59,561 bases of DNA from Terriglobia bacterium (GTDB lineage: Bacteria > Acidobacteriota > Terriglobia > UBA7540). The translations under genes and the position numbers were made by a program. The stretch covers positions 1 through 59,561 of the forward strand of contig DATKQU010000209.1 of assembly GCA_035532595.1 (NCBI GenBank), given 5' to 3'. Below the pieces are notes generated by a model. It had not been told where the DNA came from. It ran no database searches and was given only the letters and a program-made list of their open reading frames with translations. Each line of letters starts with the position of its first letter. Within the stretch, counting starts at the first letter, position 1. Of the stretch, positions 29,101-53,023 are shown piece after piece.

Positions 29101-29297
29101 GGCCTCCCTAGTTTAATCCGAAACGGCTGTGGGAAGCACTCTCCCATCATGGCGGCGCGGAACGGTGCTTCCGGGCTTGCTTTACCGAACTGCCAGGTGC
29201 GAGCCGGACCGCCAGCATTGGCCGGCCCTGGAAAGCCGCCCAGCTTGAGCCGGCGTGCTTTTTCGTGGTATAAATGAGTCTGACAAGCAGTAGCAAT

Positions 29298-29464
29298 GAC
29301 CTTCGGGGCAGGGTGAGGGAAGAAAGGATTCTTCCCAATTCCCGATCGGCGGTAGAGCCCGCAAGGGGAAGAGGACGAGCAAGACTGCCGGATGGCAGAT
29401 GCCCGAATCCCCACGACCCGGTGAAACTCCGGGGCCGACGGTAAAGTCCGGATGGGAGAAGGTC
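29298..29464 (+). promoter_or_regulatory. FMN riboswitch (RFN element)
   Basis: P1 GACCTTC/GAAGGTC. Conserved GGGGCAGGGTGA...AATTCCCGATCGGCGGTAGAGCCCGC and GGTGAAACTCCGGGGCCGACGGTAAAGTCCGGATGGGAGAAGG. Lies upstream of ribE. Confidence 0.9.
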
Positions 29465-29726
29465 AGGGTCCCACGACCTCTGCGTTGCGGTCCATTGGCA
29501 GCCGCGGCGGAGTGTGGCCATGGGTATTGAGCGGTATCCCACCTTGCCCCGCGCGGGGAATTTCCCCCGATGATACTGAGATCCTGAACCCATTCCGATC
29601 CGTCGGGCTGATCTGCGGACCTTGAGCACGTCGCGGGCGGACCCCTCTCGAGCGCGCTTCAAAACACCGGGCGCGGCGAGGTGAGACCCGAATGCCAGCC
29701 GAAATTTCAGAGCAAGCGAGTGATTT

Positions 29727-49645: not shown

Positions 49646-49901
49646 GGCCCTCTTGCACTAAAAGTCTGTTAAGTTTTTAAACGTTTGATTCTATCGTTCA
49701 CGCCGTCCATGTGTCAATCCAAACCTCAGCAAGGTGGTGTCCAATTTGCCTGAGCCGGTCGCGTAAATAACTTGCTTTTGGAGACAAAATATAACCCACA
49801 ACACACTGAAAGTGTATCATGGGCTACCCGGCCTTATGCGGGTGCCGTTGTACGTTCAACAGACAACGAGGAGCAAAGAACACCAGCTAAACCAGTACAA
49901 C

Positions 49902-50780
49902 ATGACTATTGGTATTAGTTTACTTTGCGAGTCTGGCAACACACTTCTATTGGGAGCAGATGCACGTGCGTCGTATGCTGGTACGCAACCGCTCCCCCGC
50001 CCGCATGATGATATGTGCAAGATATTTACTCTTCCTTTGGGGTTTCAAGCCGTTATCGCCGGATACTTTGATGCCTGCGAAGCCGTGATAGCCTCTCTTA
50101 CAGAAGCATTTAGGCGCGTTAAACAAGAATTACAAGGAAAAGAAGTGGGGCTAGATCATCTTCGTTTTGCTGTTACAGAAGCAGAAGCGCACGAATGGCA
50201 GATTATTCTTGATAGGGAATTTCAAAAACATCTTGGTATACGGCATCGGGATTGGACAACAGGCCCGCTAGATACGCGCCTAGTTCGAGCGGGTAAGCGG
50301 ATAGTACAGCAAACAAATTTTCCCGTACACCTCATCATTACCGGTTTTACCAGCTATGAGCCAATCATTTTCACTGTATCGGGACTCGATACTATCAGTT
50401 TCCCGCAAAAATTTGCTGTTATTGGCAGCGGTTTTACATTGGCAACAAACGCCTTAAATCAACGCCAGCAGTATGAGCACATGACCTTTCAAAGAAGTGT
50501 CTTTCACTTGATCGAGGCACTAGAAGCGGCAAGGCAAGAACCGCAAGGAACGGTTGGACCGCCAAGGGACATTGTTGTAATCGAGAGAGGGGCCTATAGG
50601 TCGCTACCTGTCCAAGACCCCGTCGTGCGCCAATTGCTATCACAGTATCAAGGCAAAGACAGCAAAGACCTCGATAACGATAATGCCATTCGGCAAAAGC
50701 TACAAAGTATTTTGTACGCCAATCCGCTTGATGAAAGCAATCGGGGGCCGTCGCCGGGCGGGGTTATACCTTCTTCTTAG
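49902..50780 (+). CDS. Proteasome-beta/HslV-like Ntn-hydrolase-fold protein (orphan)
   Basis: MTIGISLLCESGNTLLLGADARAS resembles the T1...G-x-x-L-x-x-D-x-R proteasome-beta N-terminus. A Lys-Ile pair (CKIF) follows downstream, and AVIGSGFTLA appears later. Upstream track starts (49812, 49836) are possible as a propeptide. Confidence 0.55.
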   Translation: MTIGISLLCESGNTLLLGADARASYAGTQPLPRPHDDMCKIFTLPLGFQAVIAGYFDACEAVIASLTEAFRRVKQELQGKEVGLDHLRFAVTEAEAHEWQIILDREFQKHLGIRHRDWTTGPLDTRLVRAGKRIVQQTNFPVHLIITGFTSYEPIIFTVSGLDTISFPQKFAVIGSGFTLATNALNQRQQYEHMTFQRSVFHLIEALEAARQEPQGTVGPPRDIVVIERGAYRSLPVQDPVVRQLLSQYQGKDSKDLDNDNAIRQKLQSILYANPLDESNRGPSPGGVIPSS

Positions 50781-50925
50781 CCCATCGCGCTAACACCGCT
50801 TTCCGCGCTGACTGACTGCGTTGCTCTGGCGTCATAGCTGCGGCCCTGGCAGGACCGCCCTTCTTACCACCCTTGCTTCCGAGCTTGGCAAGGTAAGCTC
50901 GAAGTTCTGGAGGCATCTTGTTCAT
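50764..50925 (-). CDS. Candidate 53-aa lysine/arginine-rich small protein (below the ORF-track cutoff)
   Basis: Reads MNKMPPELRAYLAKLGSKGGKKGGPARAAAMTPEQRSQSARKAVLARWAKKKV. Convergent with, and overlapping by 17 nt, the 3' end of the Ntn-hydrolase-like gene. Confidence 0.35.
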   Translation of the reverse strand: MNKMPPELRAYLAKLGSKGGKKGGPARAAAMTPEQRSQSARKAVLARWAKKKV

Positions 50926-50966
50926 GGCCCAAACCTACCTGAGCCGCTCACGAAAGTCAAGGAAAA

Positions 50967-51128
50967 CTAGAGTGGGTGCTTCTTGAGATACAAAAACATG
51001 CCGTATGCGAGCATTACGGCGAGCATAAAGCCGTACTTACCTTTTTCTGAAGCCAGCCACAAAATGAACGTTGCGCTCGCCAATAAGCCCACAAGTGCAA
51101 ATAGCGATTTTGAAGAGTTGTCCGCCAT
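50967..51128 (-). CDS. Candidate 53-aa two-helix small membrane protein (below the ORF-track cutoff)
   Basis: Reads MADNSSKSLFALVGLLASATFILWLASEKGKYGFMLAVMLAYGMFLYLKKHPL. Two hydrophobic stretches. Weak RBS. Confidence 0.35.
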   Translation of the reverse strand: MADNSSKSLFALVGLLASATFILWLASEKGKYGFMLAVMLAYGMFLYLKKHPL

Positions 51129-51310
51129 AGGTTTTTAGGGTTTCCGGTGTGCCTGTGCCAAGGCGTCGCTTCGGCGCGGTGTGTATGGCATTTCCCCGCC
51201 TACTGGCAACGGCGATAGCCCGAGCAACAGGCACGCCGGAAATATAGCACAACCCTACGCTTAACTAGTGTCAAAACTGCCTGCAATGCAGTGCAGGCCT
51301 AAAAGTTTAT

Positions 51311-51651
51311 GGGGTGAGTAGGTCTGAGGGCTGGTGTCAATCCAGACACCAGCCCCTTAACGCCGGGCTGGTTTCTGTTAACGAGTTGCCAGTCCGACGG
51401 CAACGATTGCCAGAAGGTCAAAACCGCCTTACGACGACTCCGTTTCGGACGCAGCGCAGAATCCCTGCTTTGCGTCAGGATGCATAGTCTCTATAGGCAA
51501 AGTACACCTATGGCAAGATGGCTGTTGCCGTACCGTTGCGCGGCTGATCCTGCCGCCATCCGCACTTCTGGCCCCAGGTGCATCAAAAGTGTTTTCAATG
51601 CACACCTCCTCCCGGAGTGCCGGGTCGCCAGAATTGTAACTCACCCCACCA
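51311..51651 (+). ncRNA. Candidate structured RNA of unknown class
   Basis: A 9-bp long-range helix GGGGTGAGT (51311..51319)/ACTCACCCC (51639..51647), followed by ACCA, encloses at least 6 local hairpins (for example the 11-bp GGGCTGGTGTC/GACACCAGCCC at 51328..51355). No convincing ORF. Confidence 0.3.
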
Positions 51652-51757
51652 GTTCTGATACCGATTAAGTCACCGGCAGTGATGTCCGATCTGCCATGAG
51701 TAGCTTACGCAAATAGTTAACCTGTAGGGCAACCAAATCCAAAAAGAGAGGTATGCA

Positions 51758-52102
51758 ATGACCAAAACGCAGTGCTATAGTTCTTGGCCGGAGGGTCTAT
51801 ACCGCATGAGCCAAGAAGATCAAGACAAGCAGTTTATCAGCGACCTACAAAAATATACCGAGTTGCAAGCTAGCTTGGCGTCTGTCCAAGCAACGCTCAC
51901 CGACATCGGAAGAAATCTGAAAGGAACAGGTGAGAGCGTGGAACGCGACCCTTATAACTGCTCAACCGAGTGGGGTATATTTAAGAGCCAAACAAGCCAA
52001 ATTGAGGGGCTCGTAAAGCAGTTCAAAGAGGAATCGAACGAAAGCCAAAGGCTTGCAGAGTCATTAAGAAAAAGACGGTTTACCTTCCCGCCCAATAAGT
52101 AA
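51758..52102 (+). CDS. Hypothetical coiled-coil protein (114 aa)
   Basis: AGAGAGG RBS. Heptad-like LQKYTELQASLASVQATLTDIG and IEGLVKQFKEESNESQRLAESL. No family recognised. Confidence 0.5.
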   Translation: MTKTQCYSSWPEGLYRMSQEDQDKQFISDLQKYTELQASLASVQATLTDIGRNLKGTGESVERDPYNCSTEWGIFKSQTSQIEGLVKQFKEESNESQRLAESLRKRRFTFPPNK

Positions 52103-52181
52103 CCAACTCACGCAATTCCACCACCAAAGCCTGTGCAAGTACGTGACCGGCTCAGGCAAATTAGGACACCACCCTCAGCAA

Positions 52182-52270
52182 GGTAGTGGGTCAATTTGGC
52201 TGGGTAGCGGCGAGTTTACCTCGCCATGTGGCGGCATAAAGCCGCCTCTAGGTCAAAATGACCCACTACC
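52182..52270. mobile_element. 89-nt MITE (second copy) directly abutting the cassette TSD
   Basis: Same element as 38699..38787. Flanked by CTCAGCAA (52174..52181) and CTCAGCGA (52271..52278). Confidence 0.75.
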
Positions 52271-52457: not shown

Positions 52458-53023
52458 GGTAAGCGCGAGCAAGCCTGTAAGCCGAATTTTGTACCCCGGA
52501 GGTCCGGGGTGGCGATCATTCATCTAGCCCCGTCATTGCTGGCGGGGTCAAGCGACCTACCCGAGAGTTGCCAGCCCGTAGCGGCGGCCCGTGACCGCCG
52601 TGCGCGGCCCGCGGGAACCCCGGCGATCACCGATCGCCGCTACAGACCTTGCGGAGCGGGTCACTCCTCCTCTCCTATTTGGTCTTGCTCCGTGTGGGGT
52701 TTGCCCTGCCCCCCATATCGCTATGGAGGCGGTGCGCTCTTACATTAAGCCGCCTGCGCGGCCGCACCTTTTCACCCTTACCGCGTCCCCATTCTGGAAT
52801 TCCAGAGGAGACGCCGGCGGTATCTTTTCTGTGGCACTTTCCGTACCGGAGGCGTACGCTCGCTTGCGCGAAATCCCCCTCCGGCCCTCGCTGTTAGCGA
52901 GCACACTACCCTGTGGAGTTCGGACTTTCCTCTCCTCCGCTCCCGCTTGCCTGCCCCGTGCCCGTGAAGGCCGGAAACAGGCGCCTGAGCGGAGCAGCGA
53001 TCACCCGGCTTACTCGCGCTGCC
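52458..53023 (-). ncRNA. rnpB: RNase P RNA, bacterial type A, unusually long
   Basis: The minus strand reads GGAGGAGAGGAAAGTCCGAACTCCACAGGG, GGTAAGGGTGAAAAGGTGCGG...TAAGAGCGCACC, CACGGAGCAAGACCAAATAGG and GGGTAGGTCGCTTGA...CTAGATGAATGATCGCCAC...ACAAAATTCGGCTTACAGG. P1 is GCGCGAGTAAGCC/GGCTTGCTCGCGC. Ends are good to about 5 nt either way. Confidence 0.9.

What the first reader, a model, noticed from the sequence alone, without database searches (positions are those of the whole stretch)
51311..51651. Roughly 340-nt densely structured noncoding region closed by a 9-bp long-range helix ending in ACCA
GGGGTGAGT (51311..51319) is perfectly complementary to ACTCACCCC (51639..51647), which is followed by ACCA. 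Between them lie several local hairpins: GGGCTGGTGTC-AATCCA-GACACCAGCCC (11 bp), GTTGCC-AGTCCGAC-GGCAAC, GACGCAGCGCAG-AATCC-CTGCTTTGCGTC, GATGGC...GCCATC enclosing GCCG...CGGC, GGTGCAT...ATGCACACC and CCCGG-AGTG-CCGGG. The segment is GC-richer than the rest of the cassette. The only ORFs in it (51429..51644 -, 51480..51668 +) have no protein-like character. It could be a cassette-encoded regulatory, guide or scaffold RNA. I cannot assign it to any family.
Basis: seen in the sequence. Interest (0 to 1): 0.6.

Follow-up and report, generated by a model that had tools for sequence, protein, structure and literature searches.

The report
Transposon-borne structured RNA with micro-ORF
The flagged stretch is a real, transcribed member of a previously unlisted family of about 300-nt folded RNAs carried by jumping genes in soil bacteria, but it most likely reads on the opposite strand, has its own promoter and a tiny translated reading frame, and its "closing helix plus ACCA" is not part of the conserved design.

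Summary
The sequence features are all present and fold far better than shuffles (z -8.6). No Rfam 15 family, tRNA or tmRNA matches.

A profile search found 14 relatives in 13 other genomes of the same bacterial class, in about 5% of genomes searched. On a 15-sequence alignment, 43 base pairs in seven helices are 91% kept. These include an 8-bp long-range helix and a pseudoknot. 27 pairs show double compensatory changes, against 14.6±2.2 in shuffles (0/500).

A soil metatranscriptome holds a 185-nt contig lying exactly inside the element and nothing else of the cassette.

Four lines of evidence favour the minus strand:
- G·U pairs outnumber the opposite kind 54 to 23.
- The consensus fold energy is better (-40.8 against -27.2 kcal/mol).
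- The conserved plus-strand ATTATA reads TATAAT (TAnnnT in 12/15, extended TG in 8/15).
- The nearly invariant plus-strand CACCUCC reads GGAGGUG, followed at a short spacing by a start codon and a micro-ORF (M-x-K-L-x-A-Y-L-V-x-E-S-R in ten members).

The 9-bp closing helix lies upstream of that promoter. It recurs in only 3 of 15 members, and ACCA is not conserved.

The unit travels with IS1595-type elements. Its function is unknown; my best guess is a self-contained RNA gene whose fold and micro-ORF translation exclude each other.

The parts
51633..51638 (-). Predicted -10 promoter box TACAAT. It is the minus-strand reading of the conserved plus-strand block ATTGTA/ATTATA.
   Evidence: The same alignment columns read TAnnnT in 12 of 15 members. 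TG sits at -15/-14 in 8 of 15 and no -35 box is conserved (alignment). This is a consensus match only. No transcription start was mapped.
51611..51624 (-). Hairpin Hf (CCCGG-CACU-CCGGG on the minus strand). It begins 8-11 nt after the -10 box, so it would be a 5'-terminal stem-loop.
   Evidence: Conserved hairpin with GC/CG exchange at one pair (6 GC, 5 CG).
51603..51609 (-). Shine-Dalgarno sequence GGAGGUG, the complement of the plus-strand CACCUCC.
   Evidence: Conserved in nearly all members, with G510 AGAGGUG, G687 GAGGUG and G699 GGAGCGUG as variants. A start codon follows at a short spacing.
51491..51598 (-). Micro-ORF: TTG start, 35 codons, LKTLLMHLGPEVR.... It is the window's version of the family's 15-36-codon ORF.
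   Evidence: Ten members share M-x-K-L-x-A-Y-L-V-x-E-S-R. Synonymous differences make up 32% of differing codon pairs in this frame, against 11% and 15% in the other two frames. The window's copy shares only the first five or so residues and then runs in another frame relative to the RNA helices.
51577..51606 (-). On the minus strand it encloses the start codon and part of the Shine-Dalgarno sequence.
   Evidence: The arms differ between members but stay complementary, read by eye in the alignments: GCCAU:AUGGC, AUGCG:CGCAU, GGAAG:CUUCC, and GUGCAU:AUGCAC in the window. It was not counted with a tool because the alignment is ragged here.
51549..51578 (-). Pseudoknot. On the plus strand, CCUG 51549-51552 pairs with CAGG 51575-51578 across helices Hb and Hd.
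   Evidence: 85% of cells are paired. The window and G699 have CCUG:CAGG where others have CCCG:CGGG.
51409..51572 (-). Long-range helix Hb. GCCAGAAG 51409-51416 pairs with CUUCUGGC 51565-51572 and closes the core domain.
   Evidence: 8 pairs, 93% of cells paired, and 6 pairs with changes on both sides, for example GUCAGUAG:CUACUGAC in G483.
51513..51563 (-). It encloses helix He (51528-51531 with 51540-51543).
   Evidence: Hd has 10 pairs, 96.7% of cells paired, and 8 pairs with changes on both sides. He has 4 pairs, all with double changes.
51483..51512 (-). Hairpin Hc. CAUAG 51483-51487 pairs with CUAUG 51508-51512 on the plus strand.
   Evidence: 5 pairs, of which 4 show changes on both sides.
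51448..51476 (-). Its length varies between members, and its loop reads GGAUU or GAUC on the minus strand.
   Evidence: Homologues have a hairpin of different sequence at the same place (alignments). It was not counted because the alignment is ragged.
51327..51356 (-). It may be a terminator.
   Evidence: 7 pairs, 95% of cells paired. The closing pair is G·U in 11 members and G-C in 4 on the minus strand, which reads as A·C on the plus strand. There is no clean U-tract, so a terminator role is inferred only.
51368..51552 (.). Stretch held as one 185-nt contig, depth 14.8, with no differences from the window, in a soil metatranscriptome run.
   Evidence: It is the only single-copy part of the cassette present in RNA run X4. 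rnpB in the same run has depth 517, and the DNA runs have depth about 5. Contigs show neither strand nor ends.
51311..51319 (.). Left arm of the 9-bp (10-bp with the flanking T/A) inverted repeat around the unit.
   Evidence: It is not conserved in the family.
51639..51647 (.). Right arm of the inverted repeat. On the minus strand it lies just upstream of the -10 box, so it is probably not transcribed from that promoter.

Best explanation
The stretch is one copy of a self-contained, mobile RNA gene that reads on the minus strand of the window, from about 51629 down to about 51320.

In order along the RNA it has:
- an extended -10 promoter;
- a 5'-terminal hairpin;
- a strong Shine-Dalgarno sequence and a micro-ORF (15-36 codons in the family, 35 in the window) whose start codon sits in a hairpin;
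- a core of about 230 nt, built from a pseudoknot, an 8-bp long-range helix that closes the domain, and four or five further helices with highly conserved joining strands;
- a terminal GC-rich hairpin.

The 3' half of the micro-ORF, and in the 18-codon members its stop codon, are one strand each of the pseudoknot, the long-range helix and helix Hd. A ribosome translating the ORF must therefore melt the folded core. From this I infer that the RNA toggles between a translated state and a folded state. The output would be one of two things:
- read-through past the terminal hairpin into whatever lies downstream (in the window, the two tiny minus-strand ORFs);
- an activity of the folded RNA itself.

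Shown:
- conservation and covariation of the fold;
- presence in an RNA library;
- conserved promoter-like, ribosome-binding and ORF signals;
- association with IS1595-type elements.

Inferred:
- the strand;
- the transcript ends;
- translation of the ORF;
- the toggle and its output.
For: Family and fold:
- Profile R1 found six relatives in the same family at E 6e-34 to 5e-11.
- Profile R2 found more in three other families of the class.
- Covariation on the minus strand: 43 pairs, 91.1% of cells paired against 80.4±0.8 in shuffles. 27 pairs have double changes against 14.6±2.2, and the covariation score is 0.434 against 0.224. No shuffle of 500 reached any of these values, and the slid controls score 0.10-0.12.

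Strand:
- The RNAalifold consensus energy is -40.8 kcal/mol on the minus strand and -27.2 on the plus strand.
- In a union of 46 pairs, 54 cells are G·U on the minus strand only and 23 on the plus strand only.
- Helices Hb, Hd and H1 lengthen through such G·U pairs.

Signals:
- The -10 box and TG motif.
- The Shine-Dalgarno sequence, start codon and conserved peptide.
- Synonymous changes are enriched two- to threefold in the ORF's frame.

Expression: RNA run X4 holds only 51368-51552 of the cassette.

Autonomy and mobility:
- No protein is shared between the flanks of the 15 loci.
- The G617 copy sits alone between inverted repeats of about 30 bp.
- The G049b copy sits 10 nt behind an IS1595 transposase gene.
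- The window's copy lies inside a cassette bounded by terminal inverted repeats that is absent from one contig of DNA run X3.
Against: - No strand-specific data exist; contigs show neither strand nor ends.
- Helix He has a G·U pair in five members that works only on the plus strand.
- MFEs of single sequences favour the plus strand in 5 of 15 members.
- In five 'short-form' members, the window among them, the peptide diverges after about five residues or changes frame. The peptide sequence itself may therefore not matter there.
- The terminal hairpin lacks a clean U-tract.
- Genes downstream on the minus strand are inconsistent and sometimes convergent, which weakens a purely cis-regulatory role.
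- The 15 sequences are related, so the shuffle controls overstate significance.
- The alignments are MAFFT alignments, and ragged regions (Hg, H3, P3) were judged by eye.
Confidence: 0.5

Rival explanations
1. One reading: a plus-strand noncoding RNA of about 340 nt, running from 51311 to 51651. It would be closed by the 9-bp helix, end in a tRNA-like ACCA, and act as a guide, scaffold or tmRNA-like RNA.
For: - The helix is perfect and has probability about 1.0 in the ensemble.
- The z-score is better on the plus strand (-8.56 against -6.18).
- G475 has a 13-17-bp flanking helix whose single non-Watson-Crick pair is G·U on this strand.
- In about seven loci a gene starts 40-190 nt after the plus-strand 3' end.
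- Covariation is also highly significant when counted on the plus strand.
Against: - The closing helix is absent from 12 of 15 members, and ACCA is not conserved.
- ARAGORN finds nothing even when relaxed, and Rfam finds nothing.
- There is no T-arm and no G3:U70 pair. The genome has its own tmRNA on another contig.
- G·U asymmetry, consensus fold energy, and the conserved TATAAT, GGAGGUG and start codon all point to the other strand.
Confidence: 0.12
2. A cis-acting leader, that is a leader-peptide attenuator, which controls the cargo genes downstream of it on the minus strand. In the window these are the 2-TM peptide gene 51128..50967 and the basic peptide gene 50925..50764. Translation or stalling on the micro-ORF would decide whether the terminal hairpin H1 terminates transcription.
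For: - The layout is a micro-ORF with a strong Shine-Dalgarno sequence, then structure, then a GC-rich hairpin.
- In the window, CCAGCCC can pair with either of two GGGCUGG copies.
- Same-strand genes follow H1 within 300 nt in the window, G510, G518, G475, G649, G714 and G684.
- Earlier notes of this scan describe structured RNA leaders in front of IS1595 cargo operons.
Against: - The alternative pairing is not conserved in other members (read).
- There is no U-tract after H1.
- In about six loci the next gene is convergent or far away.
- The G617 copy is the sole content of a MITE-sized element.
- The core is much larger, and its single strands far more conserved, than known attenuators need.
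Confidence: 0.2
3. A type I toxin-antitoxin-like addiction module. The structured mRNA would keep a small toxic peptide untranslated until it is processed, which would stabilise the transposon.
For: - The RNA has a 5' hairpin, an occluded Shine-Dalgarno sequence and start codon, and long-range pairing. It is a roughly 300-nt mRNA for a peptide of 15-36 residues and sits on a mobile element.
Against: - The peptide is not hydrophobic beyond seven residues (KLLAYLV) and is half charged.
- Its sequence is not kept in the short-form members.
- No antisense RNA or second promoter was looked for or seen.
- No PADLOC hit was found for the cassette proteins.
Confidence: 0.06
4. A protein-titrating sponge RNA of the CsrB/RsmZ kind. 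On the minus strand several hairpin loops display GGA (UGGAUU, GGAUU, GUCGGACU, AGGAUCA).
For: - The minus strand has GGA in four hairpin loops of the window.
- The H1 loop motif GGAUU recurs in many homologues.
Against: - No CsrA (PF02599) gene was found in the window's genome or in 24 genomes of its family and 4 of its genus.
- There are only 2-4 such loops.
- AATCC enrichment is weak: 3 observed against about 0.9 expected.
Confidence: 0.04

Closest known systems
Dual-function small RNAs that are both folded regulators and mRNAs for a small peptide (S. aureus RNAIII with hld, E. coli SgrS with sgrT, B. subtilis SR1). Recalled from general knowledge, not tested here.
   Same: - It has its own promoter.
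- It is a few hundred nucleotides long and has many hairpins plus long-range helices.
- It carries a short ORF with a real ribosome-binding site inside the RNA.
- It ends in a terminal hairpin.
   Different: - There is no sequence or Rfam relation.
- No target pairing is known.
- The ORF overlaps strands of the core helices and a pseudoknot.
- The gene is transposon cargo with a patchy distribution.
Leader-peptide systems in which translation of a short ORF remodels a pseudoknotted leader (the repY/repZ leader of IncI-alpha and IncB plasmids, and classical attenuators). Recalled from general knowledge.
   Same: - It has a short ORF with a strong Shine-Dalgarno sequence.
- A ribosome translating the ORF must open conserved structure.
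- A pseudoknot is part of the design.
   Different: - There is no constant downstream gene.
- No antisense RNA was seen.
- The core is larger and more conserved.
- The terminal hairpin has no U-tract.
Transporter IS (tIS) of the IS1595 family, that is passenger-carrying IS1595 elements
   Same: - The window's copy lies inside a cassette bounded by terminal inverted repeats with an 8-bp duplication (note e1-4361271).
- The G049b copy follows an IS1595 transposase gene.
   Different: - The passenger here is an RNA gene rather than a protein gene.
- The same RNA also occurs alone between other inverted repeats (G617) and next to an IS1-like gene (G049a).
tmRNA (Rfam RF00023)
   Same: - In the window only: it is about 340 nt, starts GGGG and ends CCCCACCA, and its ends pair.
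- It has pseudoknotted structure and a short internal ORF.
   Different: - There is no T-arm and no G3:U70 pair.
- ARAGORN and Infernal do not call it.
- The end helix and ACCA are not conserved.
- The ORF has its own Shine-Dalgarno sequence and start codon and lies on the other strand.
- The genome has a normal tmRNA elsewhere.

Membership tests
tmRNA | Detected by the covariance model RF00023 or by ARAGORN | tested here: not met
   There is no hit at gathering threshold or at E<=10. ARAGORN finds nothing, also at relaxed settings. The genome's real tmRNA is on contig C162 at 155.6 bits.
tmRNA | A tRNA-like domain: a 7-bp acceptor stem with G3:U70, and a T-arm directly 5' of the 3' acceptor strand | tested here: not met
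   The third pair is G-C. The 3' strand is preceded by 14 unpaired nucleotides and a 5-bp hairpin with a 4-nt loop. The end helix is absent from 12 of 15 homologues.
Any Rfam 15 family | A match at or near the gathering score | tested here: not met
   In the window the best scores are 14-22 bits against thresholds of 36-87, and they cover single hairpins only. The 14 homologous loci yield only two tRNAs and two chance miRNA hits, none on the element.
CsrB/Rsm-type sponge RNA | The partner protein CsrA/RsmA is encoded by the host | tested here: not met
   PF02599 was not found in G000, which is 72% complete. It was also not found in 0 of 4 genomes of the genus or 0 of 24 of the family, and was present only in 3 genomes of other families of the class.
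Leader-peptide transcription attenuator | A short ORF with a ribosome-binding site inside the leader | tested here: met
   GGAGGUG is followed at a short spacing by AUG, GUG or UUG, and in 13 of 15 members by an ORF of 15-36 codons (G510 has 60; G518 has no start at the usual spacing). The frame is enriched in synonymous changes.
Leader-peptide transcription attenuator | An intrinsic terminator (hairpin plus U-tract) with a conserved competing anti-terminator | tested here: inconclusive
   H1 is a conserved GC-rich hairpin, but it is followed by CUCARAUU rather than a U-run. A competing pairing is seen in the window only.
Leader-peptide transcription attenuator | A constant regulated gene downstream on the same strand | tested here: not met
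   The downstream genes differ in every locus and are convergent or distant in about six loci.
Type I toxin mRNA | A small hydrophobic (membrane) peptide | tested here: not met
   The consensus is MRKLLAYLVRESRSQLCR: seven hydrophobic residues followed by charged ones.
Type I toxin mRNA | A cis-encoded antisense RNA antitoxin | not tested
   No strand-specific data exist, and no search for a second promoter was made.
IS1595-family passenger (tIS cargo) | Lies between terminal inverted repeats with a target-site duplication | tested here: met
   The window has terminal inverted repeats at 49733-49760 and 52145-52173, flanked by CTCAGCAA on both sides. An empty-site contig in DNA run X3 joins 49736 to 52186.
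IS1595-family passenger (tIS cargo) | An IS1595 transposase in the same element in at least some copies | tested here: met
   The G049b copy has PF12762 at 1.2e-29 plus the zinc ribbon PF12760 at 6.7e-14. That gene ends 10 nt from the unit, on the unit's strand. The window's own genome has no PF12762 hit.

The most novel reading that the evidence does not exclude
The folded core of about 230 nt is a new class of large functional RNA, a ribozyme or the RNA part of an RNP. It would spread as the cargo of DDE (IS1595-type) transposons, with its activity gated by translation of its own micro-ORF. It might serve the transposon, for example in maintenance, copy control or target choice, rather than the host. 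The co-travelling proteasome-like hydrolases, found near 3 of 15 copies, could be functional partners.
Probability: 0.2. Interest if true: 0.85.

Novelty: new variant of a known kind. Interest (0 to 1): 0.66.

Why it matters
Large bacterial RNAs with conserved tertiary-looking cores are rare, and they have repeatedly turned out to be ribozymes, riboswitches or RNP scaffolds.

This one has three features that make it worth follow-up:
- It has about seven covarying helices including a pseudoknot, so its fold is well supported.
- It is expressed in soil, where it is the only part of its cassette detected in the RNA library.
- It is mobile: it travels on IS1595-type elements and in one case sits alone between inverted repeats.

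It also builds a translated micro-ORF into strands of its own core helices. That gives a directly testable link between translation and RNA folding.

It shows as well that DDE transposons carry RNA genes as passengers, in line with several earlier notes of this scan on IS1595 cargo. If the function serves the transposon, it would add an RNA layer to a family thought to be purely protein-driven.

Tried and rejected
- **tmRNA or tRNA-like reading:** rejected.
- **REP element or genomic repeat:** rejected. The stretch is unique in its genome. The best short matches elsewhere are 15-17 nt, at chance level, so no antisense target was found either.
- **Decayed IS1595 transposase gene:** rejected. 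There is no PF12762 signal in six frames of the genome.
- **Coding 71-aa minus-strand ORF 51429-51644:** no homologue among 5.8 billion clusters. Indels between homologues are not multiples of three across the core.
- **blastn searches** of 60 relatives, plasmids and phages found nothing. Only the profile search succeeded.
- **Protein-guided routes failed.** The hydrolase and the 114-aa ORF have almost no relatives that could be fetched. Alignments were too divergent for the search for related loci.
- **L020, L036 and L043** were dropped as false or partial matches.
- **A shared TIR pattern** was not found in the homologous loci. My pattern was mis-spaced for the cassette's own ends, so this says little.
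- **Literature search** found nothing relevant.
- **Outside the class:** about 139 genomes of the phylum sampled outside the class gave no match. The sequence-only model may simply not reach that far.

Full report
**1.

The nine bases GGGGTGAGT (51311-51319) are the exact complement of ACTCACCCC (51639-51647), which is followed by ACCA.
- The 341-nt stretch folds at -157.2 kcal/mol against -113.7±5.1 for dinucleotide shuffles (z -8.56).
- The other strand folds equally well in absolute terms (-157.5 kcal/mol, z -6.18).
- The stretch stays a closed domain when 140 nt of downstream sequence are added.

**2. It matches nothing known**

- Rfam 15 gives no match at gathering scores. At E<=10 it gives only chance hits on single hairpins.
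- ARAGORN finds no tRNA or tmRNA, even when relaxed.
- The genome has an ordinary tmRNA on another contig.
- The stretch is single-copy in its genome and has no significant complementarity elsewhere in it.
- It is not a decayed IS1595 transposase gene.

**3. Context**

- The stretch lies inside a 2.4-kb cassette, 49725-52181, bounded by inverted repeats and an 8-bp duplication.
- One contig of a soil DNA run joins 49736 to 52186, so the cassette is absent from part of the population.
- The cassette holds four genes:
  - a proteasome-beta-like hydrolase gene (49902-50780, plus strand);
  - two 53-codon ORFs on the minus strand;
  - a 114-codon ORF (51758-52102, plus strand).

**4. Expression**

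- Three soil DNA runs cover the whole region at depth about 5.
- A small metatranscriptome run from another study (X4) holds one 185-nt contig at depth 14.8, identical to 51368-51552.
- Apart from that, X4 covers only the multicopy MITE and rnpB (depth 517) in this 2.8-kb region.
- DNA carry-over would not single out this stretch, so I read it as an abundant, stable RNA.
- Contigs give neither strand nor ends.

**5. Homologues**

blastn found none in 60 relatives, plasmids or phages. A sequence-only profile of the 341 nt found six in other genera of the same family, at E 6e-34 to 5e-11 and covering nearly the full length. A second profile extended the set:

| Group searched | Result |
|---|---|
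| Window's own family, other genomes | 6 of 132 genomes |
| Second family (that of G049) | two copies in one genome |
| Third family (that of G617) | 7 of 151 genomes; one match (G728) partial and dropped |
| About 139 genomes of the phylum outside the class | none |

- After dropping one false and two partial matches, 15 sequences remain.
- None of the homologous loci matches an Rfam family at the element.
- Indels between members are not multiples of three across the core, and reading frames differ, so the core is noncoding.

**6. Covariation**

On the plus-strand alignment:
- 39 pairs are 90.3% kept, against 79.7±0.9 in shuffles.
- 24 pairs carry double compensatory changes, against 13.2±2.0 (0/500).

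On the minus-strand alignment:

| Measure | Observed | Shuffled |
|---|---|---|
| Cells paired (43 pairs) | 91.1% | 80.4±0.8 |
| Pairs with double changes | 27 | 14.6±2.2 |
| Covariation score | 0.434 | 0.224 |

- No shuffle of 500 reached any observed value.
- Sliding the partners by 1-3 columns drops pairing to 35-46%.

The best-supported helices are:
- the long-range helix Hb (window 51409-51416 with 51565-51572; 6 of 8 pairs with double changes);
- Hd (8 of 10 pairs);
- Hc (4 of 5 pairs);
- He (4 of 4 pairs);
- the terminal hairpin H1;
- the 5' hairpin Hf;
- a pseudoknot (CCUG 51549-51552 with CAGG 51575-51578), where the window and G699 have CCUG:CAGG and others have CCCG:CGGG.

The sequences are related, so these controls overstate significance. 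The effect is nevertheless large and is spread over many helices.

**7. Which strand**

Several independent observations favour the minus strand:
- RNAalifold gives -40.8 kcal/mol on the minus strand against -27.2 on the plus strand.
- On the minus strand, helices H1, Hb and Hd extend through G·U pairs that would be A·C on the plus strand. For example, the closing pair of H1 is A·C in 11 members and G-C in 4 when read on the plus strand.
- Over a union of 46 pairs, 54 cells are G·U only on the minus strand and 23 only on the plus strand.
- The conserved plus-strand block ATTATA reads TATAAT on the minus strand. It fits TAnnnT in 12 of 15 members, with TG at -15/-14 in 8 of 15 and no conserved -35 box. 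Hairpin Hf begins 8-11 nt after it, where a transcript would start.
- The nearly invariant plus-strand CACCUCC reads GGAGGUG on the minus strand and is followed at a short spacing by AUG, GUG or UUG.

Points in favour of the plus strand:
- one G·U-rich pair in He;
- better MFEs for 5 of 15 single sequences.

I put the minus strand at about 0.75.

**8. The micro-ORF**

- Behind the Shine-Dalgarno sequence, ten members encode M-x-K-L-x-A-Y-L-V-x-E-S-R, followed by a few more residues. Six of these ORFs are exactly 18 codons long.
- Among these ten, differing codon pairs are synonymous in 32% of cases in this frame, against 11% and 15% in the other two frames.
- The start codon and part of the Shine-Dalgarno sequence sit in hairpin Hg, whose arms change between members but stay complementary.
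- Five 'short-form' members, the window among them, lack about 15 nt here. They keep only the first five or so residues and then run in another frame or for longer.
- The window's ORF is 51598..51491, 35 codons, with a TTG start.
- What is conserved everywhere is therefore initiation at this site. The peptide itself is conserved only in the long form.

**9. What follows from the anatomy**

- In the long form, codons 11-18 and the stop codon are one strand each of the pseudoknot, Hb and Hd.
- A ribosome that translates the ORF must open the helix that closes the whole core.
- Translation and the folded state therefore exclude each other. This is inference from geometry and was not tested.

**10. 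The closing helix and ACCA**

- On the minus strand, the right arm (51647..51639) lies directly upstream of the -10 box, so it is outside the predicted transcript.
- Only three members have a significant inverted repeat around the unit, and the sequences are unrelated:
  - window: 10 bp, reached by 3 of 300 shuffles;
  - G475: a 10-bp perfect core that extends to 13-17 bp with one G·U;
  - G617: a 13-bp perfect core within an inverted repeat of about 30 bp.
- In G617 the repeat looks like the ends of a MITE-sized element whose only content is this unit.
- ACCA is ACAU in G475.
- The title feature of the finding is thus a local, probably DNA-level trait and not part of the family's RNA design.

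**11. Mobility and neighbours**

- The 15 loci share no flanking protein at blastp E<1e-4, and gene orientation on both sides varies.
- In G049b the unit follows an IS1595 transposase gene by 10 nt on the same strand. In G049a it follows an IS1-like gene.
- Proteasome-family genes lie within 1.6 kb in three loci: the window, G518 and G475.
- Each of these genomes has only one to three such genes, so the linkage is far beyond chance. It may reflect shared passage on the same transposons, or a function.
- The host family has no detectable CsrA, which argues against a Csr-type sponge despite GGA-bearing loops.

**12. Verdict**

- The finding is real and more interesting than a lone hairpin cluster. 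It is a member of an unlisted family of roughly 300-nt pseudoknotted RNAs with a built-in micro-ORF, carried by transposons in one class of soil bacteria.
- The function is not established. I commit to a self-contained minus-strand RNA gene whose fold is gated by translation of its micro-ORF (about 0.5 for the architecture, about 0.3 for the toggle having a regulatory output).
- The main rivals are a cis-acting attenuator for downstream cargo (0.2) and the plus-strand reading (0.12).

**Limits**

- All alignments are therefore sequence-driven.

Noticed in passing
window 51140-51245: A separate branched hairpin of about 105 nt with a 16-bp base helix (z -4.7 on the plus strand, -3.3 on the minus strand). 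It lies between the RNA unit and the tiny minus-strand ORF 51128..50967. Its one non-Watson-Crick pair is G·U on the plus strand. I did not see it conserved alongside the unit in the homologues.
   Followed up: partly
window 49736 / 52186: One contig of soil DNA run X3 joins 49736 directly to 52186. The 2.4-kb cassette is therefore missing from part of the population, which gives an empty-site allele. X3 also carries SNPs at 51440 (C>T) and 51592 (T>C), both at positions predicted to be unpaired.
   Followed up: partly
L035 (G617), flanks of the unit: The unit is bracketed by inverted repeats of about 30 bp, GGGGACTTATAC.CTTAACTACCTAA(A)CCG, with a 13-bp perfect core. It looks like a MITE-sized element whose only cargo is this RNA gene. 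An IS481/IS3-like transposase gene lies 146 nt away.
   Followed up: partly
L037:514-1491 (G049b) and L034:658-1488 (G049a): An intact IS1595 transposase gene (PF12762 plus its zinc ribbon) ends 10 nt from the RNA unit, on the unit's strand. The second copy in the same genome sits behind a gene with a weak IS1-like match.
   Followed up: partly
L021:4650-5621 (G518), L022:8339-9091 (G475), window 49902-50780: Proteasome-family (PF00227) genes lie within 1.6 kb of the RNA unit in 3 of 15 loci. Each genome has only 1-3 such genes. phmmer did not link the window's hydrolase to the other two, which are shown related only through their Pfam PF00227 matches.
   Followed up: partly
window 51758-52102: The 114-codon ORF has a good ribosome-binding site. 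It has exactly one relative (71% identity) in 5.8 billion clusters, on a 1242-nt ENA contig that could not be fetched. It diverges from the RNA unit's predicted promoter, 120 nt away.
   Followed up: partly
L040 (G649) and L034 (G049a): tRNA genes lie 1.2-1.4 kb from the RNA unit in two loci, as is common at the edges of integrated elements.
   Followed up: no
window 52462-53016 and 29295-29467: There is an RNase P RNA of 555 nt with large insertions (236.5 bits) right next to the cassette. An FMN riboswitch (94.6 bits) lies further upstream.
   Followed up: no
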